DNA of 64,000 bases from an uncultured Gammaproteobacteria bacterium (GTDB lineage: Bacteria; Patescibacteriota; Patescibacteriia; S139-126). Below the pieces are notes generated by a model. It made no database searches. It was not told where the DNA came from and was given only the letters and a program-made list of their open reading frames with translations. Positions 43,311 to 58,880 of the stretch are shown here, one piece after another. The DNA is taken from positions 25,496-89,495 of the forward strand of contig CAZUKA010000002.1 in NCBI GenBank assembly GCA_964620905.1, written 5' to 3'. How positions within the stretch are numbered: the first letter of the stretch is position 1; every line of letters starts with the position of its first letter. The position numbers and the translations under genes are program-made.

Positions 43311-43925
43311 ATGAAAAGCAGAGAAAGAATTGAATCAAGAAAAAATATTAAAGAAGTCAATGAGAAAAAAGTATTAGCTTTTGCTAAATTGTGGCAAGAG
43401 ACGATTGGGCCCAATGCGACCGACCAGACATTAAATATTAAATACAATTTACCATATCCCAAGGAAGATTTTTTGGACTATTTATTGAAAAAAAATCAAG
43501 TTTTATTACACGGTTCTTGTAGAACAGATATTGAAACTTTAGAACCTCATCAGGCCAATGATAGAGAAAAGGAGTTTGGCAATAAAAATGGAGTGTATGC
43601 GGTAAAAGATCCTCTTTTACCGATTTTTTATGCTATCCAGAATAGAGAAAAAATTGATGGTTTGATTGTCAGTGGTGTAAAAACTGATCCCGAAACAGAA
43701 GAAAATAAATATGAATTTAAAATGTCAAAAAATATTCTTGCTGCTCAACCTTGGACCAATGGTATGGTTTATATTTTGGATAAAAAAAGTTTTTTGCAAG
43801 GCCAAGATGATGATGGGGAGTTTGGTCGTGAGTGGGTATCGGAAAAACCTGTTAAACCACTAGCTAAACTTGAGGTTGGACCAAAAGACTTTCGATTTTT
43901 AAAAGAGATAGAATCCTTAGAATAA
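43311..43925 (+). CDS. hypothetical protein (204 aa)
   Basis: ORF only. Confidence 0.4.
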   Translation: MKSRERIESRKNIKEVNEKKVLAFAKLWQETIGPNATDQTLNIKYNLPYPKEDFLDYLLKKNQVLLHGSCRTDIETLEPHQANDREKEFGNKNGVYAVKDPLLPIFYAIQNREKIDGLIVSGVKTDPETEENKYEFKMSKNILAAQPWTNGMVYILDKKSFLQGQDDDGEFGREWVSEKPVKPLAKLEVGPKDFRFLKEIESLE

Positions 43926-43932
43926 AATATTT

Positions 43933-44382
43933 ATGAAGTTCACAACTAAAATTAATATCAATTGGCCAGTGACAAAAACTTTTACTGCTCTCAATAGTCC
44001 CGCAATGATGCAGCGGGTTGCTTGGCCAGTGGTGATATTTAAACCAGTTAAACTTAGTATTTTTCCCGAACAATGGGAACAGGGAATTGTTTATCGTATG
44101 AATATGTATTTATTCGGATTTTTACCCATGGGTTGGCAAGAGCTAAAAATTTCATCACAGACAGATGAAATAAATAAAATATATATTTTAAAAGATGTTG
44201 GTCCAGGTTGGGCAGTTAAATGGTGGGACCATAAAGTTATACTCAAACCAGTTACAGAAAATATTACTAGTTATGATGAAATTTTAGAACTTAAAACTGG
44301 ATTCTTAGGACCGATTATATGGCTTGGGATGAAGTTACTTTTTGTTTGGCGTAAGTATAGATGGTTGAAATTGACTGAATAA
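43933..44382 (+). CDS. hypothetical protein (149 aa)
   Basis: ORF only. Confidence 0.4.
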   Translation: MKFTTKININWPVTKTFTALNSPAMMQRVAWPVVIFKPVKLSIFPEQWEQGIVYRMNMYLFGFLPMGWQELKISSQTDEINKIYILKDVGPGWAVKWWDHKVILKPVTENITSYDEILELKTGFLGPIIWLGMKLLFVWRKYRWLKLTE

Positions 44383-44552
44383 AACATACCATTATCAGTG
44401 AGGTTTATATATCTAATAAATCAAAAAAATAATATAATCTTAATAATTCTAAGTCTAACAAATTGTATTATTGTGATTAGAGCCAAGGTGATAATTGGTT
44501 TAGTTGTAGAAACACTTGTTTTGTATAAAAATTATTATATATAAATACTTTT

Positions 44553-45713
44553 ATGTTAATCAAACATTTTAAAACTATTATCCCAGTAGCTATTTTAATT
44601 ATGATACTTCTGTTGAGTTATATTTTTTGGCAAAGTAGCCAAGAAAGTAAACAAATACAAATCTTACCACCAAAACCTCCTTCACAGCCGAGTGTAGCTA
44701 TTGATCAAGGTATTGAAACCACATTCAGTCAATCTGAATATTCAAACGATGGAGCTACCAGCGAGACGGTTAAATTGACCATAAGAAATACAACCGAGGA
44801 AACTTATTATTTATATACCCCCGCTTGTGCCGCAGGTTGGCCGCAAGTACAGTATTTTTTTGAATCTGATAAAGGTGAACCAGAACCGCAATTTGTTAAA
44901 CAAACTATTGCTATATCACCACCTTGTAACATGGTTCCATACTTAGATGAGTTTAAATCGGGCGCAATACATACTTTTGAGTGGGACCAAGTCAATTATT
45001 CAGAATCAGAAGATGATCATGATGATTGGAGGCCAAAATTTGTTCCCGCAGGAGATTACCGTATGATTATTAGTTTATTTAAGAATAAAGAAGGTGATGA
45101 TAGGTATGCTCAAGGGGTTGAATCGTTTGTAGTTTTTACTCAACCATTTAAAATAAAATATAATAAACCAAGTGAACGAATAAGTATAATATCTCCTGAC
45201 AAAGGTGATTTCTTAAAGAGTGGCGAAACCTACACTATCCAGTGGCAAGGTGCTAAGAGTGATAAGGTTAATTTATATTATGGGGTTGATTGGCGGATGG
45301 ATTTAAATCCTCAACAAAAGCAAGAACTTGTCTTAAACGTTGCTAACACAGGAAGTTATGATTGGCAAGTGCCAAACCTTTTCGACACTTATTCTTATGG
45401 CAATGATTATGTTATAAAAATAGAAGAAGTTGGCGGAGATGGCATTGGGTACAGTGAGGTATTTAAATTTAGAGCTGTTGCCAAACCAGCAATAATAGAT
45501 TATCGGGGTCCTAGAGAAGACAGACACAATTTTAGTCCAGCAGAAACTGGATGTAATGAGCTTATGGCTAAGTATACTTCTAGTCAAGCTTTTAGTAATA
45601 ACGGATTTAGTAGTTGTGAGTTGATTGAATTTAGTATTGGTACAACACTTAAAGAGTGTGATGCTTTTAATACTCCCTTAGGATGTAATATCTGTAAGTT
45701 TGATTGTAAATAA
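44553..45713 (+). CDS. secreted protein with N-terminal signal-anchor (paralogous family) and Cys-rich C-terminus
   Basis: N-terminus MLIKHFKTIIPVAILIMILLLSYIFWQS, related to the next three genes. C-terminal CNELMAKY...CELIEF...CDAFNTPLGCNICKFDCK. Confidence 0.5.
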   Translation: MLIKHFKTIIPVAILIMILLLSYIFWQSSQESKQIQILPPKPPSQPSVAIDQGIETTFSQSEYSNDGATSETVKLTIRNTTEETYYLYTPACAAGWPQVQYFFESDKGEPEPQFVKQTIAISPPCNMVPYLDEFKSGAIHTFEWDQVNYSESEDDHDDWRPKFVPAGDYRMIISLFKNKEGDDRYAQGVESFVVFTQPFKIKYNKPSERISIISPDKGDFLKSGETYTIQWQGAKSDKVNLYYGVDWRMDLNPQQKQELVLNVANTGSYDWQVPNLFDTYSYGNDYVIKIEEVGGDGIGYSEVFKFRAVAKPAIIDYRGPREDRHNFSPAETGCNELMAKYTSSQAFSNNGFSSCELIEFSIGTTLKECDAFNTPLGCNICKFDCK

Positions 45714-45726
45714 AATTCAAATTTAT

Positions 45727-46092
45727 ATGAACAAATCATTGAAAGTTACATTCTTAGTGATAGTAATATTAATAGCGGGTGGTGTTTTTTTATTTGGTTA
45801 TTTAAATAATTTTTTTGTAAGTTTTGGTATATGTAGACCCGGCAATATTTTAGTCAGCAATAATCAATTTAGTGGTGCACCTGATTATTGCTATAAGCCA
45901 AGTGGTTGGGAAGGTAAATTTTGTGATAAAAAATCTGACTGTGGTAGCCATCCATTATCAGAATGTGTGTTAAATAATAAAGATGCGATAAATAACAAAG
46001 GGGTTTGTAAAGATATGGTCAAACAAGGTTGTTATGTTTTGATAGATGAAGGTGGTAATTTTGGTGAGGAGACCACAGTTTGTTATGATTGA
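45727..46092 (+). CDS. small secreted Cys-rich protein (paralogous family)
   Basis: MNKSLKVTFLVIVILIAGGVFLFGYLNNFF, then 8 Cys. Confidence 0.5.
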   Translation: MNKSLKVTFLVIVILIAGGVFLFGYLNNFFVSFGICRPGNILVSNNQFSGAPDYCYKPSGWEGKFCDKKSDCGSHPLSECVLNNKDAINNKGVCKDMVKQGCYVLIDEGGNFGEETTVCYD

Positions 46093-46128
46093 TCAATTTA
46101 ATACATAGATTTTTATTTGATTTGTTAT

Positions 46129-46419
46129 ATGAAGAGAAGAAATATAATTATTTTAGTAGTTATTATTTTAGTAAGCGTTGTATTGATTTTATGGTTTTTA
46201 TATAATCCAAGAACTAGGCCACAAACAAACAAAGATTATGGTTGTTTTTTGCGATGTAAACAATCCGGATACAATAGAGGTATTTGTTTAAATGGGGGAA
46301 GTGGAATAGGAAGCGGTTGTGAGCAAGCCGGAGGCACGCAAGTTTTTGACCGTGATAACCCAATTCCTGGATGTGATTTTGAATCTATTGGTTCTTGGGA
46401 AGAATGTTGTTGTTTCTAA
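46129..46419 (+). CDS. small secreted Cys-rich protein (paralogous family)
   Basis: MKRRNIIILVVIILVSVVLILWFLYNP, then 8 Cys ending EECCCF. Confidence 0.5.
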   Translation: MKRRNIIILVVIILVSVVLILWFLYNPRTRPQTNKDYGCFLRCKQSGYNRGICLNGGSGIGSGCEQAGGTQVFDRDNPIPGCDFESIGSWEECCCF

Positions 46420-46462
46420 TATAAATATCGGCACTGGTAATAATAAATAAAATATAAAATCT

Positions 46463-46888
46463 ATGAATAAGTCATTAAAAAATATTATCCCAATTGTATT
46501 AGTATTAATTGCAGGTGTTGTTAGTATAGGTTATTTTATTTGGCAGAGTAGAATTGATAATAAATTACCTATTTCTAATGGAAGAAATTGTTTTAATGAA
46601 AATGTGTCAAAAAGTTATGACGGTGTTGGTTGTGTAGAGAAATATGAAATGTTTGATGGAATAAATTTTAAAGATGCCGTTTGCTGTGAGGGATTAGTAG
46701 AAATAAAACCAGACCTTGAACCAAAATCTTGTCTTCCATATAAGGTCGAAACTAAAGGCAGTGATGGGTTAGGAGAAGATTGTTATTTTGGAGCGATGCA
46801 TCCCTTGGGCTTATGCATGCCTTGTGGCGACGGAGTCTGTGAGCCATTAGAGAATTGGTGCAATTGCCCAGCAGACTGTAATAAATGA
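46463..46888 (+). CDS. small secreted Cys-rich protein (paralogous family)
   Basis: MNKSLKNIIPIVLVLIAGVVSIGYFIWQS, then 12 Cys. Confidence 0.5.
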   Translation: MNKSLKNIIPIVLVLIAGVVSIGYFIWQSRIDNKLPISNGRNCFNENVSKSYDGVGCVEKYEMFDGINFKDAVCCEGLVEIKPDLEPKSCLPYKVETKGSDGLGEDCYFGAMHPLGLCMPCGDGVCEPLENWCNCPADCNK

Positions 46889-47099
46889 TTTTTATGAGAG
46901 ATTTTATTAAAAAGCATCCTTTCGTATTTTATATTGTGGTATTCTTTATAGTAGTTGTTTAATTATTTGTCTTAGACTATATAATAAAAATAAAACCGGA
47001 TATTATATAAATTGATTAAGTAGATTTATTAAGTATAAATACAAAAATCGCTCCTTAGCAGAGCGATTTTTTTATTAAATAAGATATAAATTATATTTT

Positions 47100-48080: not shown

Positions 48081-48390
48081 ATTATTCTATTTATATTAAA
48101 TATACAAAATATCTTTGGAATATTAAGATTGTTTGAAAAAAATTTATAGGTAAGACATAAATTTAAAATATAAACTACTCCATATTCGGAGCGTTTTTTT
48201 CTTATCTAAACAAACTGTCAAATTTTGTAAAATAATGAGGTGCTTAAGTGAATTACATTAAAACTAAGGTGATTTTTGGCTTTGTTAATGAAGTTGAATT
48301 ATAACCAATTAGTATTGACTTTTTCCTAAAAATTTGCTATTATTTAATGTTTAGTAATAATTAACAATCAAAAAATTACTGGAGAAAAAA

Positions 48391-48606
48391 ATGAAAAAGG
48401 ATGTTGGTCCCACTATCTTATTAATTGTTGGATTTTGTATATGTATTATGTCAGTTTTGAGCTGGCAGATGACTTGGTACATTAATCCATGGATTGGAAC
48501 AATTGGTTTATTATTTGGTTTAGTTCTAATTTTTTTATCTTTAATTTTTTCATTTATTATAAAAATAATAAATGGTATATTGAAAACAATAATCAATTTT
48601 TTTTAA
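48391..48606 (+). CDS. small 2-TM membrane protein (71 aa)
   Basis: GGAG RBS at -8, two hydrophobic helices, terminator hairpin downstream. Confidence 0.45.
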   Translation: MKKDVGPTILLIVGFCICIMSVLSWQMTWYINPWIGTIGLLFGLVLIFLSLIFSFIIKIINGILKTIINFF

Positions 48607-48745
48607 CCTAAAAAATATAAATTTTTTATAACTGCTCTCTTATAGAGCGGTTTTTTATTAACTAAGGTGTCTGGATTTTTGAGGAGAAGGTAGTATTTCA
48701 GGTGAAATTTTGATAAAATAAAAGTAATATAATTTACTAAAATAT

Positions 48746-48928
48746 ATGTATAAAATAAACAAACATATGTATAAGGAAATTGATAAGTACAATTATAAAG
48801 GTTGGTTAAACTCTGATAGCTTTATAAAAAGAGTAATCGCCGTCAATGGTTATTTTTTAACAGGGCAATTACTCCTTTTATTTATTGCTAGTATTGTCAC
48901 TTTCATTTTAGTTTCTAATTTTATTTAG
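48746..48928 (+). CDS. small membrane protein (60 aa)
   Basis: Short ORF with a C-terminal TM, located between repeat modules. Confidence 0.3.
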   Translation: MYKINKHMYKEIDKYNYKGWLNSDSFIKRVIAVNGYFLTGQLLLLFIASIVTFILVSNFI

Positions 48929-48963
48929 TTACTAAATTTATTTTATTTTAAGTTGTTAGTTTT

Positions 48964-49100
48964 AAAACCACTCCTCTCGGAGCGGTTTTTTCTATGTCAA
49001 AATATGTAAAATGGGGTCCCACCAGGTGCGATTTTGGAACCCCTTGATTGAGGAGTTGAAGTTGTGGATGGAGGGGTTGGAGATGGTGGTTTAGATTAGA
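48964..49100 (+). repeat. terminator + conserved block module, copy (tRNA-His-proximal repeat family)
   Basis: aaaaccactcctctcggagcggttttttctatgtcaaaatatgtaaaatggggtcccaccaggtgcgattttggaaccccttgattgaggagttgaagttgtgg... Confidence 0.8.
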
Positions 49101-49157
49101 TAGCAAATAAAAAAGGTCTACTAAAATTAGCAGACCTAAATTTTTTAAAAATTTTAA

Positions 49158-49400
49158 CTAATCTGTATCAGCTTTTATGCATCCACCAATAACTATACCG
49201 ATTCCAGCAATTGCCGCTACAATAAAAAGAGGTGATTGATGCCCCTCTAATGGCAAAAATACTTGTACAATTGATGCAAATCCACAAACACTTATTATTG
49301 CCCCAGTAAACCTAGGAAGAATTTTTGCTAATATGATAAGTACCAGACCAATTATTTGTAGACCCGCACAGATGATTGATAAAGTTTCCAAGTTAAACAT
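49158..49400 (-). CDS. small 3-TM membrane protein (80 aa)
   Basis: ORF on the minus strand inside the repeat-delimited array. Confidence 0.4.
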   Translation of the reverse strand: MFNLETLSIICAGLQIIGLVLIILAKILPRFTGAIISVCGFASIVQVFLPLEGHQSPLFIVAAIAGIGIVIGGCIKADTD

Positions 49401-49477
49401 TTTAACCCCACTATTTATTTGTATTGTTAATGTGAATTAATGGAGTATAATAGCATAAGTATATTGAATTGTCAATA

Positions 49478-49630
49478 TAAAACCGCTCCTTTCGGAGCGG
49501 TTTTTTCTATGTAAAAATATGTAAAATGGGGTGGCACCAGGTGCGATTTTGGAATCCCTTGATTGAGGAGTTGAAGTTGTGGGTAAGTGGTATTAGAGAT
49601 TGCTGTTTAGGTAGGATTTTGGTAGAATTA
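49478..49630 (+). repeat. terminator + conserved block + extended -10 (TGGTAGAAT) module, copy
   Basis: Near-identical to the 48964-49100 and 56382-56532 copies. ATG of the downstream gene is 6 nt after TAGAAT. Confidence 0.8.
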
Positions 49631-49634
49631 AAGT

Positions 49635-50003
49635 ATGAATGAATATATAATGCCATCAGAATTTTCTAATTTTTTTAAGCCAACTAAACGTAAAGTACTA
49701 GTATCTTTACTAATACCGTTTATAATATTAGGACTGCCTTTATTATTTTTAGTAATCAGAGCCTTTTTGTGTTTTAACTGGAATGGTTATAATTGTTCAG
49801 GTGCCACAGATGCAATATTTGAGATTCTTTCATATCCTTTCTTATTATTATTTATTGTACCATTAGAAAAACTAGAATTATTTTTTTCACCAAAAACATT
49901 TAGTGGCGAAGTTATATTATTTATAAGTTTAATTATTTTTTATTTATTTTTGAGTTATCTTTTTGTTTCATTTTATTATCATAAAAGGAATAAAAATATT
50001 TAA
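49635..50003 (+). CDS. membrane protein (122 aa)
   Basis: ORF immediately downstream of a module promoter; 3 TM helices. Confidence 0.45.
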   Translation: MNEYIMPSEFSNFFKPTKRKVLVSLLIPFIILGLPLLFLVIRAFLCFNWNGYNCSGATDAIFEILSYPFLLLFIVPLEKLELFFSPKTFSGEVILFISLIIFYLFLSYLFVSFYYHKRNKNI

Positions 50004-50025
50004 ATTTTTATATAATAAATAAAAA

Positions 50026-50170
50026 TTGCCCCCTCTCGGAGCGGTTTTTTCTTATCTAAATCTACTGTCAAATTATGTAAAATGGGGTGCCTTCGTAGAC
50101 GCTATTAGAACTAAGATTATTTATAGTTTTGAGGAAGAGATGGCTCAATAGGTAAGTTTTTGGTAGAATT
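50026..50170 (+). repeat. repeat module, variant copy
   Basis: ccccctctcggagcggttttttcttatctaaatctactgtcaaattatgtaaaatggggtgcc ... tttttggtagaatt. Confidence 0.75.
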
Positions 50171-50175
50171 AGTAT

Positions 50176-50802
50176 ATGATTAGATTTTTCAGTAAAATAT
50201 TTTTACCATTTAAAGTGGCTGGCGGATATGCAATAGTATTAACATTATTTGTTGTTGGAGTTTCAGCATTTGTTTATTCTGGTGGATTTCTAGATTTGCC
50301 CTTAATTTTTATTTTTTTACCACCATTTCCGGCAATAATTACACTTCCAATTACAATTGTAATATGTTGGTTTATTGCATCATTATTAATTAAATTACAA
50401 AGAAAAATATTACCAAATAAAGAACGTTTATTTACCTATTCAATTATCATAATTCTAGTTTTAATTATATTTATATTTTCTGTTCCTGTTTATGCAACAC
50501 GTATAATTAAAATAATTCCAACCTCTCAGATTTGTTGGATTGCGGATAACTGGGATAATTGGGCGCCTAGTAATAAATACGAAGGTACTAAATGTTATAC
50601 TGCGTTAGCAATTAAAAAAAACGATTTAGATCTATGTGGTGATCTTAATTATGAATTCTTGAGAGAGGGATGTTATGTACAGATGGCAATTTTTAATAAT
50701 GATATCACTATTTGTGAAAAGTATATTCATAAAGTTCCTAATTATATATATCCCGATACTAATATTAATGATTGTAAAAAAAGAGTTCAACGAGGAAAAT
50801 AA
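50176..50802 (+). CDS. membrane protein with Cys-rich C-terminal domain (208 aa)
   Basis: Multi-TM N-terminal half; C-terminus with 8 Cys (CWIADNW...CYTALA...CGDLNYEFLREGCYVQ...CEKY...CKK). Confidence 0.45.
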   Translation: MIRFFSKIFLPFKVAGGYAIVLTLFVVGVSAFVYSGGFLDLPLIFIFLPPFPAIITLPITIVICWFIASLLIKLQRKILPNKERLFTYSIIIILVLIIFIFSVPVYATRIIKIIPTSQICWIADNWDNWAPSNKYEGTKCYTALAIKKNDLDLCGDLNYEFLREGCYVQMAIFNNDITICEKYIHKVPNYIYPDTNINDCKKRVQRGK

Positions 50803-50819
50803 TTTTAATTTAATAATTA

Positions 50820-50900
50820 CAAACCGCCCCCTCTCGGAGCGGTTTTTTCTTATCTAAATCTACTGTCAAATTTTGTAAAATGGGGTCGCTTGGGAACTTA
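50820..50900 (+). repeat. repeat module, partial copy (terminator + proximal block)
   Basis: aaaccgccccctctcggagcggttttttcttatctaaatctactgtcaaattttgtaaaatggggtcgc. Confidence 0.75.
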
Positions 50901-51048
50901 AGTTATAACTTTAAAATGATTAGTGATATATCACACCCCTAATGAATTTAAAATGGTTAAAATAAATTTTTGTATAAATACTATGCCAGGCAAGAATATA
51001 AATTACCGATCTAAGATTGTTTGATGCCCCTATATTTTTTATTTGCAA

Positions 51049-54000
51049 TTATTTTTTAAACCAAGGGGAATGGGTATAACCTTCTTTACCCGACCAGAGG
51101 TAGAGAGTGGGAATATCGGAATAAAGTTCTTGATGAATATCGCTTGAATAAGTCCAAAAAATAATATTTTTAAATTCTTTTTTAAGAGCTTCGGATTCAA
51201 TTTTTCTCATCACATAATATCTCTTGGCTTCATTTTTATAATCCTTAAATCCTCTATGTTTGGCTGATTTTTCTAGCTCGGCACTGTTTTTTAAATCTCG
51301 CCACTCTCTTTCTGTTAATAATTTAAGATTATTTTTTATTATAATGTCAGATAATTTTTGTCTTTTCCATAGTTCACTTAAATATTTACTGGTATATCCA
51401 GCTTTTTTAATAAGTTTTTTTATTTCTTTTAGATATTGTTCATAAGTATTTTTATTATACTTATTCAACCTTGCATGTTCGTTAGCTAAAATAAAAATAA
51501 AATTAAGACCCGGCTTATAAATGTTTTTAATTTGATTATTTAACTGTTGAAATTTTTTTAATGCCGCTAAGTCTTTTTCGTCTATTTTTAATTTATCAGA
51601 TGCTCCCCAGAAACCAACTAAATCAATCGGTTTATTTTTTAAAACAAACTGATTGATTGCAAAGGCGATCTCGTCCTCCTTATAGGGGACATCTCTTGAA
51701 ATATTTCTTTGATTGAATAATTTTAAAATTTCATCAGCTATAGATGGTTTAATAAATTGTGGCAAACTCGCCCTCATTAACCAAGGATAGATTTTATACC
51801 ACGCTTGTCTAGCATTTTCTATACCCGCACTATTGATTTTTAATTTTTTATCCCAAAATTTTATTAATTCATTAAACATAACATCATGATTTAGCATAGT
51901 TGGAAATTCATTTGTAAAATATTTCAAAGCCTTAATTTTGTTTTTCTTTATAAAATTTATTGTTTCTTTTAAAGCCGAAACAAAAGATATGATTGCGGGT
52001 TGAAATTTTGGATCAAGATTATCGCAGATTGTAATACCTGTAAATAAATAATCTCTAAAATAATCTTCAAAAGAATAAACAATATGTCCCCCGCGACCAA
52101 CTAAGTCTAATGCATAATCTACAGTCATAATACCAATATCCACCTTTCTTTCTTTTAATGCCTTAACTAAGGCATTAGATTTAATAGGAATAAATTTTTT
52201 ATTGGGTAATATTTTTTTAGCAAGTGTATTGGTTGTTGAAAATTCTTGATAGGTACCAATTTTGTAATTATAAAAATCATCTAATTTTTTAATTTTTATA
52301 TTTGGGTCTAATGTAACTGCGACCACGGGAACACGACCGATTAATTGTCCAACAATTTTTCCTTTGGTTTTAAAATTTGAAGCAAAAGAAAAAACTGGAT
52401 CAGCGATACCTATTTGAGCAGAGCCTGACATTAAGGAATTATAAGTTAAATCATCGCCCCCCGAAGAAATAAAATCTATATCTAGTTTGTGTTTTTTATA
52501 ATAACCTAATTTGGCTGCTAAGTAGGCCGGAAAATAAAGGGGCATTCTTGAAAATTCAGCCACCAACATTCTGTATTCTCCCGGCTTATCATCGATAGTA
52601 CTTAATGTTTCTTTAGTGATTATTCGATGATAATTTTTATGTAGTTTATTAAATTTAAGATTTTTGTACTTGTTGAAATAAACTAATTCTTCTTCGGTTA
52701 AAAAACCATATCTCTGTTTAGTTGGATAATCTAGTTTACCTTTATTTTCTGATAATACTGCCTTGGCCACATCGCCATCTTGTGTTCTAAAATTAAAACC
52801 AACATTCATACCTGCACCATTGGAAAATGGAACTTTGTAACGCCAGGCAATATAATCGGGCAAGAATTCTTCGGCTACCTTTCTTAAAATATATTTAGTA
52901 GTAACTTGATGATTTTCTCTTTTAATTTTTAGACTACCATCAATTTGTAGGGCAAATTCTGCGACTTTGGTATCAAAAAATGGAGCTCGAGTTTCCAATG
53001 TATGTTTCATAGACATTCTATCCACGCGCATATTATGGCTTCGTTCCAAATCATTAGTGATTAGATAGCAACCCTTATTTACATGTTCATCACTTAATCT
53101 TGAAAACTCATTATAGCCCCCAAATAGTTCATCTGCTGCTTCACCAACTAATGCTATACGATAACCAGCTCGAACCACTTCTTTTGAAAGGATGTCTAGC
53201 GCAAAAGATTGTCTTATAACTTGAGCCTCATACATTTCTAGATGATAGATTAAGTTTTCAAATTCTTTTGCATAATCAACATTCGGATAAACAATATGAT
53301 ATTTATAATTATTGTCTTTGCATAACTTTAAAGAAGCTTCATAATCAGAAGAGCCTGGGAAGCCAAGTATAAAGGCAGTTACGTTTTTATGAAATCTTGT
53401 AGCTATCTCCATTATAAGACTACTGTCAACACCACCGCTTAATAAAACTGCGATTGGCAAATCAGTATCAACTCTTTTTTTTACTGCTTCGACCATTAAT
53501 TCAGTTAATTTTGTTTTTGCAAAATCTAAATCTTTAATTTTGTTGTTGTAATTTATTTTGTGATAAGCTTTTATTCTCCCATTATACATATAACATCCTT
53601 TGGGGAAAATTTTTACTTCTTTTATAAAATCGAATTGTACTAGCTGTTTTATTTCCGAACCAAAATAAAAGTTTTTATTTTTATCTCTAGCATAAAATAA
53701 AGGTTTTACACCAAAACGATCTCTAGCTACAAAAAAATTATTTTTCTTAGTATCATAAATTACAAAGGCATACATTTCCGAATCAATTTTTTCGATCATT
53801 TTTTCTCCGTACTCCTCATACAAATGTGCTAATACTTCCGTGTCACAATCCGTTTTGAATTTATGCTTCTTTTTTTCTAATTGAGATCGTAATTCTTTAT
53901 AATTAAATATTTCACCGTTTTGGGCAGCAAAAATAGTACCATCTTCATTAGATAGCGGTTGATGACCAGTATCACGACCAACAATTGGTAAGCGATTGGC

Positions 54001-54132
54001 TCCTAAGGCACCTTTCTCAAAAACTCTTAATTCATAAAAATTAGTACCTCGATGTTTAATCTTACTTAAAGAATCTCTCATGAATAATTCTTTTTTTTGG
54101 TAATTGCCGAAAACAGCTGTAATTCCACACAT
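51049..54132 (-). CDS. asparagine-synthetase (glutamine-hydrolysing) homologue fused to an NMT1/SsuA-like periplasmic-binding-fold domain and a ~280-aa C-terminal domain of unknown function (1027 aa)
   Basis: Ntn amidotransferase MCGITAVFG, PP-loop SGGVDSS, AsnB C-domain. Residues ~520-760 resemble NMT1/THI5/SsuA binding proteins. The C-terminal third has no recognisable family. Confidence 0.75.
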   Translation of the reverse strand: MCGITAVFGNYQKKELFMRDSLSKIKHRGTNFYELRVFEKGALGANRLPIVGRDTGHQPLSNEDGTIFAAQNGEIFNYKELRSQLEKKKHKFKTDCDTEVLAHLYEEYGEKMIEKIDSEMYAFVIYDTKKNNFFVARDRFGVKPLFYARDKNKNFYFGSEIKQLVQFDFIKEVKIFPKGCYMYNGRIKAYHKINYNNKIKDLDFAKTKLTELMVEAVKKRVDTDLPIAVLLSGGVDSSLIMEIATRFHKNVTAFILGFPGSSDYEASLKLCKDNNYKYHIVYPNVDYAKEFENLIYHLEMYEAQVIRQSFALDILSKEVVRAGYRIALVGEAADELFGGYNEFSRLSDEHVNKGCYLITNDLERSHNMRVDRMSMKHTLETRAPFFDTKVAEFALQIDGSLKIKRENHQVTTKYILRKVAEEFLPDYIAWRYKVPFSNGAGMNVGFNFRTQDGDVAKAVLSENKGKLDYPTKQRYGFLTEEELVYFNKYKNLKFNKLHKNYHRIITKETLSTIDDKPGEYRMLVAEFSRMPLYFPAYLAAKLGYYKKHKLDIDFISSGGDDLTYNSLMSGSAQIGIADPVFSFASNFKTKGKIVGQLIGRVPVVAVTLDPNIKIKKLDDFYNYKIGTYQEFSTTNTLAKKILPNKKFIPIKSNALVKALKERKVDIGIMTVDYALDLVGRGGHIVYSFEDYFRDYLFTGITICDNLDPKFQPAIISFVSALKETINFIKKNKIKALKYFTNEFPTMLNHDVMFNELIKFWDKKLKINSAGIENARQAWYKIYPWLMRASLPQFIKPSIADEILKLFNQRNISRDVPYKEDEIAFAINQFVLKNKPIDLVGFWGASDKLKIDEKDLAALKKFQQLNNQIKNIYKPGLNFIFILANEHARLNKYNKNTYEQYLKEIKKLIKKAGYTSKYLSELWKRQKLSDIIIKNNLKLLTEREWRDLKNSAELEKSAKHRGFKDYKNEAKRYYVMRKIESEALKKEFKNIIFWTYSSDIHQELYSDIPTLYLWSGKEGYTHSPWFKK

Positions 54133-54222
54133 AAATTATGATTTTAATAAATAATTTATTTTGTAAAAAATAAAATTTTAAAAGAGTTATATAAATATTT
54201 TTTAATAGTCTAATTATATCAC

Positions 54223-54375
54223 AAAACCGCCCCATCTCGGAGCGGTTTTTTTAATGTTATAAATCGGCCTGAATGGCTGTGCCATCTGAAGCTTTAGCGT
54301 AGGATGGGGTGGCACCAGGTGCTATTTTTGAACCCCTTGATTGAGGAGTTAAAGTTGTGGGTGGAGTCAATGGTA
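54223..54375 (+). repeat. repeat module copy (upstream of the AsnB-fusion start)
   Basis: aaaaccgccccatctcggagcggttttttt ... ggatggggtggcaccaggtgctatttttgaaccccttgattgaggagttaaagttgtgggtggag. Confidence 0.75.
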
Positions 54376-54518
54376 ACGTGTTAATATTGACTTTTTCGTA
54401 AAAATATGCTACAATTCAATATTCTAAATCGTACATACACAATAAAAAATAAGCCATCGAGAGGATGGCGATGTTCAAAAAACATTGACACGAGAAGTGT
54501 CAGAAAGGATTCAACATC

Positions 54519-54920
54519 GTGAAGGCAAAACAAATTATAACAGCTTTACAGTTCGCAGCCAGCGAACTTGTCATCGAACTCTGTTCAGATTTACGCCTCG
54601 TATTCCGAGAGAATGCACCATTACCAAGGCAGGGTTTAAATTTGAAAATATTATACAGAGCAAACGCTAGTGTACTAAAAGATGGATTTCCTGAATTAGG
54701 ACTTACTCACTACTCTAACGCATATCTGTTCCAAGTCGAAATAGAAGTTGTAGGATGGGAAAAGAAAAATAAACTACGTTGTTGGTTTGCTAAAAGCCAA
54801 ACGCAAGAGCATCCAGGCTGGTGGCCTCTTAAAGGGGAATTGAATTATAATCGTACAAAAATTGAATTTCATTGCCGTGCCAAAGAAAATAATGCAATAG
54901 AAATTTTTGAACATCGATAG
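54519..54920 (+). CDS. hypothetical protein (133 aa), locally GC-elevated
   Basis: ORF preceded by the palindrome TGACAC-N5-GTGTCA (54485-54501), which overlaps a TTGACA box. Confidence 0.4.
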   Translation: MKAKQIITALQFAASELVIELCSDLRLVFRENAPLPRQGLNLKILYRANASVLKDGFPELGLTHYSNAYLFQVEIEVVGWEKKNKLRCWFAKSQTQEHPGWWPLKGELNYNRTKIEFHCRAKENNAIEIFEHR

Positions 54921-54952
54921 CCCAAAGAACAAACGTTAATTTCGTTTCCTAT

Positions 54953-54980
54953 AAAACCGCTCCTCATCTGAGCGGTTTTT
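54953..54980 (+). terminator. family terminator hairpin (aaaaccgctcctcatctgagcggttttt)
   Basis: Same hairpin family as the module terminators. Confidence 0.7.
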
Positions 54981-55063
54981 AAATTTATATTTTTTAATTC
55001 AATTGGGGTCAATTCAAAATCACCAAACCTGGCAAACCAAGTTTTTTAGCTTATATAAAACAA

Positions 55064-55196
55064 AAGCACCTCCTCGGTAGAGGAGATGTTCTTATGGGGT
55101 GGCACCAGGTGCGATTTTGGAACTCTTTGATTGAGGAATTGAAAAAGTGGGTGGAGGGGTTAGAGATGGTTGTTTAGGTAGGATTTTGGTAGAATT
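55064..55196 (+). repeat. repeat module conserved block + extended -10, copy
   Basis: ttatggggtggcaccaggtgcgattttggaactctttgattgaggaattgaaaaagtgggtggaggggttagagatggttgtttaggtaggattttggtagaatt. Confidence 0.8.
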
Positions 55197-55212
55197 AAAT
55201 TGAATTTATCAT

Positions 55213-55917
55213 TTGACTATGTCTAAAAGGTATTATCCAAATATTAAGTTTAGTGTTAGTTTAGCGAGAGAAAAAAAGATTTTTTTAGAGAGAAAAAGAA
55301 ATTTGCAAAAGTTTTTGCCCGCAGAAATAAGTTTTGTTACAAATAGAAAATACGCAAGTTATAGAAATGAATTATTATCCTCTTATTTGGATGTTTATTA
55401 TTCAGATAAGAAAAAGTTTTTAATAGAAAGTGTTAGAAATACAAAAAGTAAATGGCAGAAAGTAGAGAAAAAATTTTTTATAAAAGTTGATAAGATTTTT
55501 AATAATTGGCCTTGGCCTAAAGGTAATTATAGGGGGTATGTTTCTATTGCCCATTCTTTTCCTCGCAACATAAAGGATAAGACTTTTTCTTTTCCAGTAA
55601 AAGATTATATACCAGGACGAGAGAACAATGATATACGTGTGATAGCACACGAGATGCTTCATTTTATAGAATATGATTATTTACAGAAAAAATTTGGATT
55701 GAAAGCAAGTGAACACGATTCATTTGATAATACCTTTTGGCAATTTACCGAAAATTTAAATGTATTAATTCAAAATACTAGTTTTTGGAAAGAATTTAGT
55801 ACAGGTGTTAAATCAAAGCCATATGACGATTGTAAAAAAATGTATAATAAGATGAAAAGCATATGGGATAGAGATAAGAGTATTGATAGACTAGTTGATA
55901 AAATTTTTTATAGTTAA
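55213..55917 (+). CDS. hypothetical protein with HExxH zinc-metallopeptidase-like motif (234 aa)
   Basis: VIAHEMLHFIEYDY. No signal peptide. Driven by a module promoter. Confidence 0.45.
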   Translation: MTMSKRYYPNIKFSVSLAREKKIFLERKRNLQKFLPAEISFVTNRKYASYRNELLSSYLDVYYSDKKKFLIESVRNTKSKWQKVEKKFFIKVDKIFNNWPWPKGNYRGYVSIAHSFPRNIKDKTFSFPVKDYIPGRENNDIRVIAHEMLHFIEYDYLQKKFGLKASEHDSFDNTFWQFTENLNVLIQNTSFWKEFSTGVKSKPYDDCKKMYNKMKSIWDRDKSIDRLVDKIFYS

Positions 55918-55926
55918 TCAATTACA

Positions 55927-55955
55927 AAAGTCGCCCCATCTTGGAGCGGTTTTTC
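55927..55955 (+). terminator. family terminator hairpin (tcgccccatcttggagcggttttt)
   Basis: Same hairpin family. Confidence 0.65.
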
Positions 55956-56079
55956 TAACTTGACTATTCTATATAAGGGTTATAGGATAGTATGTTAGTT
56001 CATTAAAAAAATGTAAATAAAACCATCAAAAAATAAATAATTATTATAAACAAATTCAAAGAAAGATTAGGGTATTTAT

Positions 56080-56367
56080 ATGTCAGAACTTCATAATATT
56101 CAAGTCAAAATGGTTAAAGAAAACAAACCAGATTTAACTTTAGATGATTTGGAAATTTTTCACGCAGATTGTGGAGGAGGTAAAATTTCAAATAAAAATC
56201 TTCTAGGTGGTAAAAATTTAAAATGCACGAGATGTCTTGAAGAAGTGTATTTTTCATACAGTGAAATAGGAACAATATATAAAACCGCCCTTACGGGTGA
56301 AAAGCTGGAACTTGTGTGTTACAGAATAAATGGTAATAGATCCCATTTTATAGAAGTTCTTAATTAA
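56080..56367 (+). CDS. small zinc-ribbon protein (95 aa)
   Basis: CGGG...CTRC and a second C pair. Confidence 0.4.
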   Translation: MSELHNIQVKMVKENKPDLTLDDLEIFHADCGGGKISNKNLLGGKNLKCTRCLEEVYFSYSEIGTIYKTALTGEKLELVCYRINGNRSHFIEVLN

Positions 56368-56381
56368 TAAATTGTTTAATT

Positions 56382-56532
56382 AAACCGCCCCATCTCGGAG
56401 CGGTTTTTTCTTTGTCAAAATATGTAAAAATGGGGTGGCACCAGGTGCGATTTTGGAACCCCTTGATTGAGGAGCTAAAGTTGTGGGTGGAGGGGTTAGA
56501 GGTGGTTGTTTAGGTGAGCATTTGGTAGAATA
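56382..56532 (+). repeat. repeat module copy (terminator + conserved block + TGGTAGAAT)
   Basis: ttaaaccgccccatctcggagcggttttttctttgtcaaaatatgtaaaaatggggtggcaccaggtgcgattttggaaccccttgattgaggagctaaagttgtgggtggaggggttagaggtggttgtttaggtgagcatttggtagaat. Confidence 0.8.
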
Positions 56533-56556
56533 TAGGTAATATTAAACATAAATTCT

Positions 56557-57396
56557 ATGAGTAAGTCATTAAAAATTATTGTCCCTGTAATATTGGTATT
56601 AGTAGTAGGTGGTGCTGTGGCAGGATATTTGTATTGGCAAAATATAAACCCTGATGTTATAGAGGAACCACTGCCCCAACAACAAGTTAAAAGTGATGAT
56701 AAACAAGTACAAAATAATGAGACTGACAGTACAACCAATACAAATATAGACCGAATTAATTATTTAAAAGAAAATGTTCCTACTGAGATTTTAAATTATA
56801 ATTCTGATAAAGATAATAATGATTCAGATTTAGATGGTTTACCAGACAATCTCGAAGATATCTTAGGGACCAACCATAATAAATCAGATTCTGATGATGA
56901 TGGTTTTAATGATATAGATGAATTAAAAGCCGGCTATAATCCGCTTGGTAATGGAACGATTTTTGATTCAACAGATGATAAAATTAAGAGTAATGGATTG
57001 TGGTATTTTATTAGATATCAGCAATCAAATGATGCACAGCGTTTTAGTAATATTAGTACAATACGTACAGCTCTAGATTTATATTATAAAGATTATGGTG
57101 TTTACCCATCTGCAGAAGGTGAAATTATTCTTGGAAAAGATGTAAAAAGTTTAACAAAGTCAGGTTGGGGTAATGAGGTAGGTAGCGGAATGAATTATAT
57201 GAACTTAGTGTATGATAATACTTCTCCTGGTGGTATTCCTTTTACATATTGCACCACTGATAATAATGATATAGAGAAGTGTTCTAAATCCATTTCTTCT
57301 TATATAATAAAATTTAAACTTGAGATTGGAGTTCAAACAGATTTTGGAGTTTTAGGTCCAGGATTGCACATCGCTACACCAAATGGTTTTCAATAA
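56557..57396 (+). CDS. membrane-anchored protein with thrombospondin-3-like Ca-binding segment and C-terminal pseudopilin/type-IV-pilin-like globular domain
   Basis: N-terminus MSKSLKIIVPVILVLVVGGAVAGYLYWQ (family signal-anchor). DSDLDGLPDNLEDILGTNHNKSDSDDDGFNDIDELKAGYNPL. The segment QRFSNISTIRTALDLYYKDYGVYPS matches the GspG/pilin alpha-beta loop motif. No canonical G-FTLIE prepilin N-terminus. Confidence 0.5.
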   Translation: MSKSLKIIVPVILVLVVGGAVAGYLYWQNINPDVIEEPLPQQQVKSDDKQVQNNETDSTTNTNIDRINYLKENVPTEILNYNSDKDNNDSDLDGLPDNLEDILGTNHNKSDSDDDGFNDIDELKAGYNPLGNGTIFDSTDDKIKSNGLWYFIRYQQSNDAQRFSNISTIRTALDLYYKDYGVYPSAEGEIILGKDVKSLTKSGWGNEVGSGMNYMNLVYDNTSPGGIPFTYCTTDNNDIEKCSKSISSYIIKFKLEIGVQTDFGVLGPGLHIATPNGFQ

Positions 57397-57426
57397 ATAT
57401 ATTTTAATAGTGTTTATTCTATTTAC

Positions 57427-57475
57427 AAAACCGCCCCCTCTCGGAGCGGTTTTTTCTATGTCAAAATATGTAAAA
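57427..57475 (+). repeat. terminal repeat-module copy (terminator + proximal block) abutting the tRNA-His 3' end
   Basis: ccgccccctctcggagcggttttttctatgtcaaaatatgtaaaa, followed directly by tggggtggc, which is the 3' end of tRNA-His. Confidence 0.8.
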
Positions 57476-57550
57476 TGGGGTGGCTAGAGGGAGTCGAACC
57501 CTCGCCAGCGGGACCACAACCCGCTGTTCTACCGTTAAACTATAGCCACC
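57476..57550 (-). tRNA. tRNA-His (anticodon GTG), encoded CCA, G-1:C73
   Basis: Reverse complement folds as G(-1)GTGGCTA acceptor, anticodon stem GCGGG/CCCGC with loop TTGTGGT, T-arm GGGTTCGACTCCC, 3' TAGCCAC-C-CCA. Confidence 0.85.
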
Positions 57551-58850: not shown

Positions 58851-58880
58851 GAATTAGGAATTAAGAATTAGGAATTAAGG
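58851..58880. repeat. 4 tandem copies of an 8-mer (gaattagg/gaattaag); an inverted partial copy lies at 58703-58722 on the other side of tRNA-Arg
   Basis: gaattaggaattaagaattaggaattaagg vs cttaattcgtaattctaatta. Confidence 0.6.

What the first reader, a model, noticed from the sequence alone, without database searches (positions are those of the whole stretch)
44553..46888. Four tandem paralogous genes for Cys-rich secreted proteins sharing a distinctive signal-anchor (M-N/K-K-S-L-K-x-I-I/V-P-I/V-x-L-V-L-I-A-G-G-V-x-x-G-Y-F/L-x-W-Q)
Consecutive ORFs of 386, 121, 96 and 141 aa share nearly the same N-terminal 28 residues. Their cysteine-rich ectodomains are otherwise unrelated (8-12 Cys each; motifs such as CGDGVCEPLENWCNCPADC and EECCCF). 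The same N-terminus recurs on the pilin-like protein at 56557 (MSKSLKIIVPVILVLVVGGAVAGYLYWQ). A conserved leader with divergent Cys-rich payloads is reminiscent of bacteriocin or effector families that share an export or sorting signal. Alternatively it could be a class of membrane-anchored adhesins specific to this lineage.
Basis: seen in the sequence. Interest (0 to 1): 0.6.

Follow-up and report, generated by a model that had tools for sequence, protein, structure and literature searches.

The report
Shared signal-anchor on small surface proteins
A small-genome bacterium has an operon of cysteine-rich, membrane-anchored surface proteins. Three of them, plus a few genes elsewhere, begin with the same inherited ~30-residue anchor segment joined to unrelated protein bodies; this is a family private to one lineage, not a widespread export signal.

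Summary
The four ORFs (386, 121, 96, 141 aa) are real. Their Cys counts are even (8, 8, 8, 12), every Cys is conserved between strains, and dN/dS is 0.15-0.46. The "same N-terminus" holds for orf1, orf2, orf4 and the distant orf5, but not for orf3, which has only a generic hydrophobic anchor. For orf2/4/5 the similarity is true homology of a 5' module (about -16/-39 to +60/+91 nt; blastn E 2e-18 to 4e-6), after which the genes are unrelated. A leader profile searched against 1.84 billion representative proteins found only these proteins plus one further payload (P0005, 454 aa) from a sister strain. DNA-pattern scans of genome and metagenome collections gave only chance hits. The leader is therefore lineage-private, not a CPR-wide sorting signal. 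It is a 19-21-residue uncharged hydrophobic run after two Lys. It lacks a lipobox, a prepilin motif and a double-glycine cleavage context, and the window holds no C39 transporter. It is most likely a Sec signal-anchor. Strain comparison shows mosaicism: one variant (L003) carries an orf1-type promoter and start fused within the I-I-P codons to the orf4 body. The closest analogy is the Mycoplasma vsp/vpma families, but I found no evidence of switching. Payload functions remain unknown. Interest is modest.

The parts
44496..44552 (+). Upstream region of orf1 (promoter-like/translation-initiation region). It travels with the first ~14 codons of orf1 as one module.
   Evidence: L003 2003-2099 = window 44496-44594 at 88%, retained between two segments that L003 lacks. 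Promoter function is inferred.
44553..45713 (+). orf1, 386 aa. It has an orf1-type leader (MLIKHFKTIIPVAILIMILLLSYIFWQ), a Kre9/KNH Ig-like domain at aa 214-305, and a Cys-rich C-terminal tail.
   Evidence: PF10342 31.8 bits, above the 24.6 cut-off; leader profile 52 bits; dN/dS 0.22; 8/8 Cys conserved.
45687..45786 (+). 5' leader module of orf2, from -39 to +60 relative to the ATG at 45727.
   Evidence: blastn to the orf4 module: 100 nt, 68%, E 2e-9.
45727..46092 (+). orf2, 121 aa, MNKSLK leader, 8-Cys ectodomain. It has a faint EGF-like CxxxxGWEGxxC stretch that is not significant.
   Evidence: (dN/dS 0.15).
46129..46419 (+). orf3, 96 aa, 8 Cys. It has a generic N-terminal TM anchor only and is not a member of the leader family.
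   Evidence: E 0.19; dN/dS 0.46; Defensin-like E 0.049, not significant.
46447..46553 (+). 5' leader module of orf4, from -16 to +91.
   Evidence: 107 nt, 74% identical to 56541-56647, E 2e-18 (family D8, 36).
46463..46888 (+). orf4, 141 aa, MNKSLKNIIPIVLVLIAGVVSIGYFIWQ leader, 12-Cys ectodomain ending CGDGVCEPLENWCNCPADCNK.
   Evidence: one homologue cluster only; 12/12 Cys conserved across alleles 76-79% identical; dN/dS 0.25, dS 0.50.
47043..47071 (.). Hairpin terminator between orf4 and the convergent EamA gene. It is the only terminator-like site in 43900-47200, so orf1-4 are probably one operon (intergenic gaps 13, 36 and 43 nt).
   Evidence: The operon reading is inferred.
56541..56647 (+). 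5' leader module of orf5, from -16 to +91. Against P0005 the homology runs from -20 to +134.
56557..57396 (+). orf5, 279 aa. Same leader, then a linker, TSP3-type Asp-rich repeats and a C-terminal domain with a weak pseudopilin (T2SSG) resemblance. It is the last cassette before tRNA-His.
   Evidence: database hits cover only the TSP3 part.
48153..57485 (.). Context: an array of about 8 small cassettes. They are separated by a repeated module made of a terminator, a spacer, the last ~10 nt of tRNA-His and a ~100-nt promoter-like segment. orf5 sits in the last cassette.
   Evidence: Content differs between the window, L017 and L003.
57476..57549 (-). tRNA-His gene. Its 3' end and downstream terminator are the sequence repeated through the array.

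Best explanation
orf1-orf4 form a probable operon of small to medium, disulfide-rich extracytoplasmic proteins. Each is held in the cytoplasmic membrane by an uncleaved N-terminal Sec signal-anchor (N-in, C-out).

Three of the four (orf1, orf2, orf4), together with orf5 and at least two genes in sister strains (P0005 and L003 5273-5701), carry one homologous 5' module. The module runs from about 16-57 nt of upstream sequence through the first 12-45 codons: M-x-K-S-L-K-x-I-I-P, a hydrophobic stretch, G-G, then G-Y-x-x-W-Q. It is private to this species-level lineage. It has been joined to unrelated bodies by recombination at different points within or just after the leader, and it is kept under purifying selection because it supplies translation start, membrane targeting and anchoring.

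Shown: homology of the module, its narrow distribution, its mosaic breakpoints, and purifying selection on the genes and the leader. Inferred: Sec targeting, uncleaved topology, disulfide bonding, and a surface role such as adhesion or host contact.
For: Homology rather than generic hydrophobicity:
- blastn E 2e-18, 2e-9 and 4e-6 between the orf4, orf5 and orf2 modules.
- The exact 19-nt start motif occurs only at these three genes.
- A leader HMM run on all six-frame ORFs of the window and loci hits only these genes, their alleles, P0005 and L003_5273.

Unrelated bodies:
- Ectodomain blastp gives E>=0.6.
- P0005 shares only residues 1-~45 with orf5.

Different breakpoints:
- orf4~orf5 homology ends at +91, orf2~orf4 at +60, orf5~P0005 at +134 and orf5~L003_5273 at +35.
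- The L003 allele is orf1-like up to ATTATCCCA and orf4-like from there on. L003 and a contig of the four-gene type (L022, which carries orf1 and the start of orf2) come from the same metagenome.

Narrow distribution:
- Six hits at E<=1e-3 in 1.84 billion representative proteins: three are self, one is P0005, and two are marginal and unrelated.
- Genome and metagenome DNA scans returned only chance hits without a TM segment.

Real, constrained genes:
- dN/dS is 0.15-0.46 against strain L017.
- All Cys are conserved, including 12/12 in orf4 despite 30 substitutions.
- For the orf5 vs P0005 leader, pS is 0.51 and pN 0.08.

Anchor character:
- There are two Lys, then a 19-21-residue run free of charged and amide residues, with Kyte-Doolittle mean 2.2-3.6.
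- AlphaFold models a helix over residues 2-28 and 3-34.
- There is no Cys in the first 32 residues, so no lipobox.
- Even Cys counts fit disulfide formation outside the cell.
Against: - Topology and cleavage were not predicted with a dedicated tool. In orf4, orf5, P0005 and L003 the sequence [SVAG]-x-G just before the conserved Tyr would satisfy the -3/-1 rule, so cleavage that releases soluble Cys-rich proteins cannot be excluded.
- The direction of the L003 event (deletion or insertion) is unresolved. Its orf1-like segment is only 88% identical, against 97% in the flanks, so the event is not recent.
- The four-gene cluster is stable in two strain types across at least 8 sequencing runs, so recombination at the leader is rare.
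- No function is demonstrated for any ectodomain. Structure models failed (pLDDT 44.5 and 37.6).
- The taxon (CPR/Patescibacteria) was not verified here.
Confidence: 0.6

Rival explanations
1. The leader is a dedicated export, sorting or processing signal, like a bacteriocin double-glycine leader or an effector signal. A specific transporter or peptidase would recognise it and release the Cys-rich payloads.
For: - The leader is conserved beyond hydrophobicity: MxKSLK, P10, GG and GYxxWQ, with pN well below pS.
- The payloads are small, Cys-rich and unrelated.
- orf3 and orf2 have faint defensin-like and EGF-like patterns (neither is significant).
Against: - The GG is embedded in a 19-21-residue hydrophobic run, unlike soluble double-glycine leaders.
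- The window's ABC exporter (32792-34549) has only ABC_membrane and ABC_tran domains, with no C39.
- No peptidase or transporter is adjacent, and none is gained or lost with the genes in L003 or L017.
- The leader is restricted to about 4 genes per genome in one lineage.
- orf1 (386 aa, Ig-like domain) and P0005 (454 aa) are not peptide-like.
Confidence: 0.08
2. The N-termini are cleavable Sec signal peptides, so the products are secreted soluble Cys-rich proteins rather than anchored ones.
For: - The n-region, h-region, GG and small-x-small (S-I-G, V-A-G, G-A-G, S-T-G) before the Tyr fit the -3/-1 rule in orf4, orf5, P0005 and the L003 allele (read from the sequences).
- The total length to that point is 23 residues.
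Against: - The uncharged hydrophobic run continues through the putative site to W27, giving 19-21 residues, which is TM length.
- orf1 has no helix breaker and no small-x-small site.
- The putative mature N-terminus (YFIWQ) would be strongly hydrophobic.
- AlphaFold models one continuous helix.
Confidence: 0.15
3. The shared 5' module is the handle of a surface-variation system. Payload genes would be exchanged, deleted or switched by recombination at the conserved leader/5' UTR, as in Mycoplasma vsp/vpma, possibly coupled to the tRNA-His cassette array and the nearby Xer-like recombinase.
For: - A mosaic allele has its crossover in the leader.
- The orf4 allele has dS 0.50 against 0.05-0.21 for its neighbours.
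- Leader-bearing genes with three different bodies occupy cassettes of the hypervariable array in three strains.
- A Xer-like tyrosine recombinase lies at 58875-59852.
- The vpma/vsp precedent has a conserved 5' UTR and signal peptide with unrelated mature parts (PMC2268961).
Against: - All copies are in direct orientation, and no inverted copy exists, so inversion switching is impossible.
- The four-gene cluster is identical in organisation in all contigs but one.
- There are no phase-variable tracts.
- Leaders differ by 18-32% at DNA level, which makes them poor substrates for frequent homologous recombination.
- The recombinase looks like the housekeeping Xer, and a dif-arm-like 11-mer in the module occurs at chance frequency.
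Confidence: 0.12
4. The similarity is only that of generic Sec signal sequences, that is compositional convergence.
For: - This is true for orf3 (E 0.19).
- Unrelated proteins from other organisms also end their TM segment with GY..Y/WQ-like aromatic belts (P0007, P0015, P0016).
Against: - DNA-level homology includes 16-39 nt upstream of the ATG, with E down to 2e-18.
- No other TM protein in the window scores better than E 0.07.
- The exact start motif is unique to these genes.
Confidence: 0.03

Closest known systems
Mycoplasma agalactiae vpma and M. bovis vsp variable surface lipoprotein families
   Same: Both are clustered genes in a reduced-genome, host-dependent bacterium. The 5' untranslated region and signal-peptide-coding region are conserved within the family, while the mature parts share no significant homology. 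A tRNA gene and a Xer-type tyrosine recombinase lie nearby (PMC2268961).
   Different: Vsp/Vpma are lipoproteins with an AAKC lipobox, whereas here there is no Cys in the leader. In vpma a single promoter is moved by Xer1-mediated inversions between oppositely oriented genes. Here all copies are direct, are probably co-transcribed, and show no evidence of switching. Vsp/Vpma bodies are repeat-rich, whereas these are Cys-rich and non-repetitive.
YSIRK-G/S and KxYKxGKxW signal peptides of Gram-positive surface proteins (comparison from my own knowledge)
   Same: Both have a recognisable conserved motif inside the N-terminal signal of otherwise unrelated surface proteins.
   Different: Those motifs are spread across many genera, lie in cleaved signal peptides and usually pair with LPXTG sorting. 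This leader gave no Pfam or NCBIfam hit to them. It is confined to one lineage and looks uncleaved.
Cysteine-rich extracellular proteins of CPR Peribacteria (Anantharaman et al. 2016, PMC4736985)
   Same: Both are CPR-type organisms encoding clustered, Cys-rich, signal-bearing extracellular proteins. Those were proposed to act in attachment, with strain variation concentrated in them.
   Different: The Peribacteria proteins are very large (about 1,655 aa on average), and no shared leader module was reported. Here the proteins are 96-386 aa and there is no sequence relationship.
Double-glycine leader peptides of class II bacteriocins (comparison from my own knowledge)
   Same: Both have a conserved N-terminal leader containing GG ahead of divergent small Cys-containing payloads in tandem genes.
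   Different: Bacteriocin leaders are hydrophilic or amphipathic, are cleaved right after GG, and need a C39-peptidase ABC transporter. Here the GG sits mid-membrane-helix and no C39 domain is present in the window.

Membership tests
Sec signal-anchor (type II membrane topology) | Positively charged N-terminus followed by an uncharged hydrophobic segment of about 18-22 residues. | tested here: met
   K3 and K6, then a 19-21-residue run without K/R/D/E/H/Q/N, with KD mean 2.2-3.6, in orf1-5, P0005 and L003_5273. A helix is modelled over residues 2-28 and 3-34.
Sec signal-anchor (type II membrane topology) | No signal-peptidase I cleavage. | not testable with these tools
   No SignalP or DeepTMHMM was available. 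A small-x-small site before the Tyr exists in some members but not in orf1.
Bacterial lipoprotein signal (as in Vsp/Vpma) | Lipobox with an invariant Cys at the end of the h-region. | tested here: not met
   No Cys in the first 32 residues of any member.
vsp/vpma-type variable surface gene family | Conserved 5' UTR plus signal-coding region, with unrelated mature regions. | tested here: met
   Module homology runs from -16/-39 to +60/+134. The bodies are unrelated.
vsp/vpma-type variable surface gene family | Oppositely oriented genes, or an invertible promoter, with recombination sites allowing site-specific inversion. | tested here: not met
   All module copies are on the + strand, and there is no significant inverted copy.
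Double-glycine leader bacteriocin/peptide | Soluble 15-30-aa leader cleaved after GG/GA/GS. | tested here: not met
   The GG lies inside the hydrophobic run, with hydrophobic residues continuing for 7-9 positions after it.
Double-glycine leader bacteriocin/peptide | Partner ABC transporter with an N-terminal C39 peptidase domain. | tested here: not met
   The only ABC exporter in the window (585 aa) has ABC_membrane and ABC_tran domains only. The rest of the genome was not available.
Type IV pilin / T2SS pseudopilin (orf5) | Class III signal: G|F/M-T-L-x-E with Glu at +5. | tested here: not met
   The orf5 N-terminus is MSKSLKIIVPVILVLVVGG..., with no G-F-T-L-I-E motif.
Type IV pilin / T2SS pseudopilin (orf5) | Pilin or pseudopilin globular domain. 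| tested here: inconclusive
   PF08334 T2SSG scored E 0.041 and 14.4 bits, below the 21-bit cut-off, at aa 156-188. There was no PDB sequence hit.
YSIRK / KxYKxGKxW signal peptides | The motif is present in the signal peptide. | tested here: not met
   No such family appears among Pfam or NCBIfam hits at E<=1, and the motif is not visible in the sequences.
Kre9/KNH-like Ig-like domain (orf1 only) | Match to PF10342 above the gathering score. | tested here: met
   31.8 bits against a 24.6 cut-off, aa 214-305, full model length.
Integron (for the neighbouring cassette array) | IntI-type integrase and attC sites. | tested here: not met
   The recombinase at 58875-59852 scores 133.8 bits against the 265 cut-off for TIGR02249 and is Xer-like. 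The repeats are terminator hairpins plus a tRNA-His 3' fragment, not attC-like.

The most novel reading that the evidence does not exclude
The leader is one element of a modular gene-building system in a CPR-type symbiont. In this reading, a portable module (translation start plus signal-anchor) is recombined onto newly acquired coding sequences, turning them into surface proteins. The tRNA-His-linked array of single-gene cassettes supplies the raw material. Each cassette is bounded by a terminator, a tRNA-3'-end fragment and a promoter module, and cassette content differs completely between sister strains. Functionally this would resemble an integron, but it would be built on a tRNA att-like site and a Xer-like recombinase.
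Probability: 0.12. Interest if true: 0.7.

Novelty: new member of a known kind. Interest (0 to 1): 0.35.

Why it matters
CPR/Patescibacteria-type bacteria are thought to live attached to host cells, so their surface proteins are the likely determinants of host range, yet almost all are unannotated. This locus gives a small, well-defined set of genuine genes under purifying selection that encode disulfide-rich surface proteins. They are recognisable by a lineage-private leader, which makes a usable tag for picking out the organism's surface proteins. The locus also gives a concrete example of new membrane-anchored proteins arising by fusion of an existing start and anchor module to unrelated bodies. 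It does not reveal a new general secretion or sorting signal. The adjacent tRNA-His cassette array may be the more interesting object for follow-up.

Tried and rejected
- **Word-indexed profile search.** The aligned leaders were searched against the 5.8-billion-protein collection. This was uninformative and cost one search.
- **DNA pattern for the leader start.** Scans of genome contigs and metagenome contigs gave 5 and 7 hits. All are chance matches without a TM segment.
- **IIP...GY..WQ pattern.** No hit in viral contigs.
- **Full-length searches.** orf4 found one homologue cluster only. orf5 found only TSP3-repeat proteins.
- **AlphaFold2.** orf1 as a single sequence gave pLDDT 44.5, and orf4 with a 2-row alignment gave 37.6. 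Both were too poor for fold search, so none was run.
- **PDB sequence searches.** orf3, orf4 and orf5 returned nothing. orf2 gave only an EGF-like stretch at E 0.5.
- **Family libraries.** PHROGs gave nothing relevant. NCBIfam gave nothing above its cut-offs. PADLOC was not run.
- **Rfam.** The region holds only the tRNA-His gene; the weak sRNA-family matches were far below their gathering scores and I treated them as chance.
- **Missing Shine-Dalgarno as a special feature.** Rejected, because most genes in the window lack one.
- **dif/XerD-arm resemblance.** The ATTAAACATAA 11-mer upstream of orf5 occurs at chance frequency, 10 found against 18 expected.
- **Array repeat in viral contigs.** No hit.
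- **Source samples in the literature.** No paper found.
Full report
**1. What is there**

The window is 34% GC. Between a methyltransferase gene (42554-43300) and a convergent EamA transporter gene (47100-48080) lie two orphan genes (204 and 149 aa). After them come four same-strand ORFs:
- orf1, 44553-45713 (386 aa)
- orf2, 45727-46092 (121 aa)
- orf3, 46129-46419 (96 aa)
- orf4, 46463-46888 (141 aa)

The intergenic gaps are 13, 36 and 43 nt. The only terminator-like hairpin is at 47043-47071, so a single operon is likely; this is an inference.

The proteins have 8, 8, 8 and 12 Cys, none within the first 32 residues. Only orf1 has a recognisable domain, a Kre9/KNH Ig-like domain above the Pfam cut-off. 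NCBIfam, PHROGs and PDB sequence searches add nothing significant.

The genes are real. Against a sister strain (L017, 96% nt identity over 11 kb), dN/dS is 0.22, 0.15, 0.46 and 0.25. Every Cys is conserved, including 12 of 12 in orf4 despite 30 amino-acid substitutions.

**2. Is the shared N-terminus real?**

It is real for orf2, orf4 and orf5 (56557-57396):
- The 19-nt string TATGARYAARTCATTRAAA occurs exactly at these three start codons and nowhere else in 64 kb.
- blastn of the -60..+110 regions against the whole window gives orf4~orf5 107 nt at 74% (E 2e-18, from -16 to +91), orf4~orf2 100 nt at 68% (E 2e-9, from -39 to +60) and orf2~orf5 E 4e-6.

orf1 (MLIKHFKTIIPVAILIMILLLSYIFWQ) is a more distant member. 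Its DNA matches are not significant alone, but it scores 52 bits against the leader profile. An allele in another strain bridges it to orf4, as described in section 4.

orf3 is not a member. It scores E 0.19 against the profile, no better than an unrelated membrane protein at 57870 (E 0.07), and has no DNA match.

After the leader the proteins are unrelated (blastp E>=0.6).

**3. How widely does the leader occur?**

A profile of the four window leaders was searched exhaustively against 1.84 billion representative proteins. It found six proteins at E<=1e-3:
- orf4, orf5 and orf1 themselves.
- One new protein, P0005 (454 aa, MSKSLKIIIPVLLVLVVGGAGAGYYYWQ...EPLPQQQV...).
- Two marginal hits, one an evidently chimeric sequence and one a 42-aa fragment.

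P0005 shares only its first ~45 residues with orf5. It lies in contigs of the sister strain (L016-L019).

DNA-pattern scans for the leader start in 185,579 species-representative genomes and in the JGI metagenome collection returned 5 and 7 loci. All are chance matches with no hydrophobic segment after MxKSLK.

Full-length searches found one homologue cluster for orf4 (76% identity) and only TSP3-repeat matches for orf5.

The leader is thus private to one species-level lineage and is present on about four genes per genome. This argues against a CPR-wide sorting signal.

**4. Mosaic structure**

Homology between pairs of leader-bearing genes stops at different positions:
- +35 for orf5 vs L003 5273-5701, a 142-aa protein with another body
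- +60 for orf2 vs orf4
- +91 for orf4 vs orf5
- +134 for orf5 vs P0005

Contig L003 (JGI 3300009868) lacks window 43324-44495 and 44595-46474. Its single gene is orf1-like from -57 to the codons for I-I-P (ATTATCCCA). From there on it is orf4-like, 97.6% identical to the L017 allele.

A contig of the four-gene type (L022, 2.9 kb, covering the 204-aa and 149-aa genes, orf1 and the start of orf2) comes from the same metagenome, so both arrangements coexist there. An assembly chimera is unlikely. The shared exact stretch is only ~9-12 nt, and the orf1-like part of L003 is 88% identical to the co-occurring orf1, not 100%.

The direction of the event, two deletions or two insertions, is unresolved.

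The orf4 allele also differs far more between strains (dS 0.50) than its neighbours do (0.05-0.21), which suggests allelic replacement. Otherwise the four-gene cluster is organised identically in every other contig that reaches it, from at least eight sequencing runs. Rearrangement at the leader is therefore rare.

**5. What the leader is**

It has two Lys (K3 and K6). A run of 19-21 residues without charged or amide side chains follows, with Kyte-Doolittle mean 2.2-3.6. The run contains Pro10 and a central GG, and it ends in an aromatic belt (G-Y-x-x-W-Q). AlphaFold models it as one helix, the only confident part of otherwise failed models.

Several alternatives are ruled out:
- There is no lipobox Cys.
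- There is no prepilin G-F-T-L-x-E motif.
- There is no YSIRK or KxYKxGKxW match.
- The GG is mid-helix rather than at a cleavage junction.
- The only ABC exporter in the window lacks a C39 peptidase domain, and no peptidase or transporter is gained or lost together with the genes in the strain variants.

Between orf5 and P0005 the 28 leader codons differ by 10 synonymous and 5 non-synonymous changes (pS 0.51, pN 0.08). The peptide sequence is therefore under selection, not merely recently copied.

The first six codons and about 16 nt upstream are also nearly invariant at synonymous sites. Most genes in this genome have no Shine-Dalgarno sequence. Selection on the translation-initiation region is a plausible extra constraint, but this is an inference.

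The best reading is an uncleaved Sec signal-anchor that places disulfide-rich domains on the outer face of the membrane. Cleavage at [S/V/G]-x-G|Y cannot be excluded without SignalP-type tools.

**6. Comparison with known systems**

The nearest analogue in organisation is the Mycoplasma vpma/vsp families. In those, the 5' UTR and signal-peptide-coding region are conserved, the mature parts share no homology, and a Xer-type recombinase and a tRNA gene flank the locus (PMC2268961).

Membership fails on defining features:
- These proteins are not lipoproteins.
- All copies are in direct orientation.
- There is no invertible arrangement.

Cys-rich, strain-variable extracellular proteins have been described in CPR Peribacteria (PMC4736985). 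Those are much larger, and no shared leader was reported. The present case is a new, lineage-private example of a familiar kind: a paralogous surface-protein family with a conserved signal module.

**7. Context worth noting**

orf5 is the last unit of an array (48153-57485) of about eight small cassettes. They are separated by a repeated module with four parts:
- a bidirectional terminator
- a 17-30-nt spacer
- the last ~10 nt of tRNA-His (TGGGGTGGC; the real gene is at 57476-57549 on the minus strand)
- in most copies, about 100 nt ending in TGGTAGAAT just upstream of the next gene

Only the first cassette is shared by the window, L017 and L003. Everything else differs between these closely related strains. 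Leader-bearing genes with three different bodies (orf5, P0005 and L003_5273) occupy cassettes in the three variants.

The array is lower in GC, 24-31%. The nearby tyrosine recombinase is Xer-like, not IntI-like. The repeat was not found in viral contigs.

I did not establish whether this array is an active site-specific integration platform.

**8. Verdict**

The finding is a lineage-specific family of signal-anchored, disulfide-rich surface proteins. Their common leader is a homologous, selected 5' module that has been recombined onto unrelated bodies. It is not a bacteriocin-type leader or a general CPR sorting signal.

The functions of the ectodomains remain unknown. Adhesion or host contact is the most likely role by analogy, but this is an inference.

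Interest is modest at 0.35. The modular, cassette-based reading is possible but unproven, at roughly 0.12.

Noticed in passing
window 48153-57485 (repeat cores near 48216, 48995, 49510, 50066, 50864, 54300, 55090, 56413, 57459): An array of about 8 small cassettes separated by a 70-190-nt repeat. The repeat consists of a bidirectional terminator, a spacer, the last ~10 nt of tRNA-His and a ~100-nt segment ending in TGGTAGAAT before the next gene. Cassette content differs completely between three closely related strains (window, L017, L003) apart from the first cassette. Short-read contigs of the window strain break at these repeats.
   Followed up: partly
window 46463-46888 vs L017 9479-9904: The orf4 allele is far more diverged between strains (dS 0.50, 79% aa identity) than all neighbouring genes (dS 0.01-0.21, 93-100% aa identity). 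This suggests allelic replacement by recombination. All 12 Cys are kept.
   Followed up: partly
window 43311-44382; L003 1-2100: The two orphan genes upstream of orf1 (204 aa with a weak DUF6886 match, and 149 aa) are absent from strain variant L003 together with orf1-3. In L003 the adjacent methyltransferase gene is split by a frameshift into 207-aa and 63-aa ORFs.
   Followed up: no
whole window (start-codon contexts): Most genes, including housekeeping ones, have A/T-rich upstream regions without a Shine-Dalgarno motif. In several array cassettes an extended -10-like TGGTAGAAT lies only 5-8 nt before the ATG, which would give leaderless mRNAs.
   Followed up: partly
window 56557-57396 (orf5): An unusual architecture: a signal-anchor, a linker, TSP3-type Asp-rich (Ca-binding-like) repeats, then a C-terminal segment (RFSNISTIRTALDLYYKDYGVYPS) resembling the start of a pilin or pseudopilin globular domain. 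It has no prepilin signal.
   Followed up: partly
window 46129-46419 (orf3) and 45727-46092 (orf2): orf3 has a CxxxC...GxC...CCC pattern (CFLRCKQSGYNRGIC) with a sub-threshold Pfam Defensin-like hit (E 0.049). orf2 has an EGF-like C-x4-G-W-E-G-x2-C stretch (PDB hit E 0.5). Neither is significant.
   Followed up: partly
window 45678-45713 and 46853-46888: orf1 and orf4 end in similar Cys motifs (GCNICKFDCK* and WCNCPADCNK*), although their ectodomains are otherwise unrelated.
   Followed up: no
window 58875-59852 (-): A tyrosine recombinase next to tRNA-Arg and 1.3 kb from the tRNA-His end of the array. It passes the NCBIfam XerA_Arch cut-off (229.7 against 220) but falls below the XerC, XerD and integron-integrase cut-offs.
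   Followed up: partly
proteins P0007, P0015, P0016 (other organisms): Unrelated proteins also end their single TM segment with G-Y/F-x-x-Y/W-Q-like aromatic belts (VLGYLYYESRQ, GIIFYVWQSAK, VVAGYLLYQRY). The C-terminal part of the leader motif is therefore probably a generic membrane-interface feature rather than a specific signal.
   Followed up: no
window 51049-54132 (-): One array cassette encodes a 1027-aa fusion of an asparagine-synthase-like region (GATase plus Asn_synthase domains) with an NMT1/THI5-like domain. This is an unusual architecture inside the low-GC variable region.
   Followed up: no
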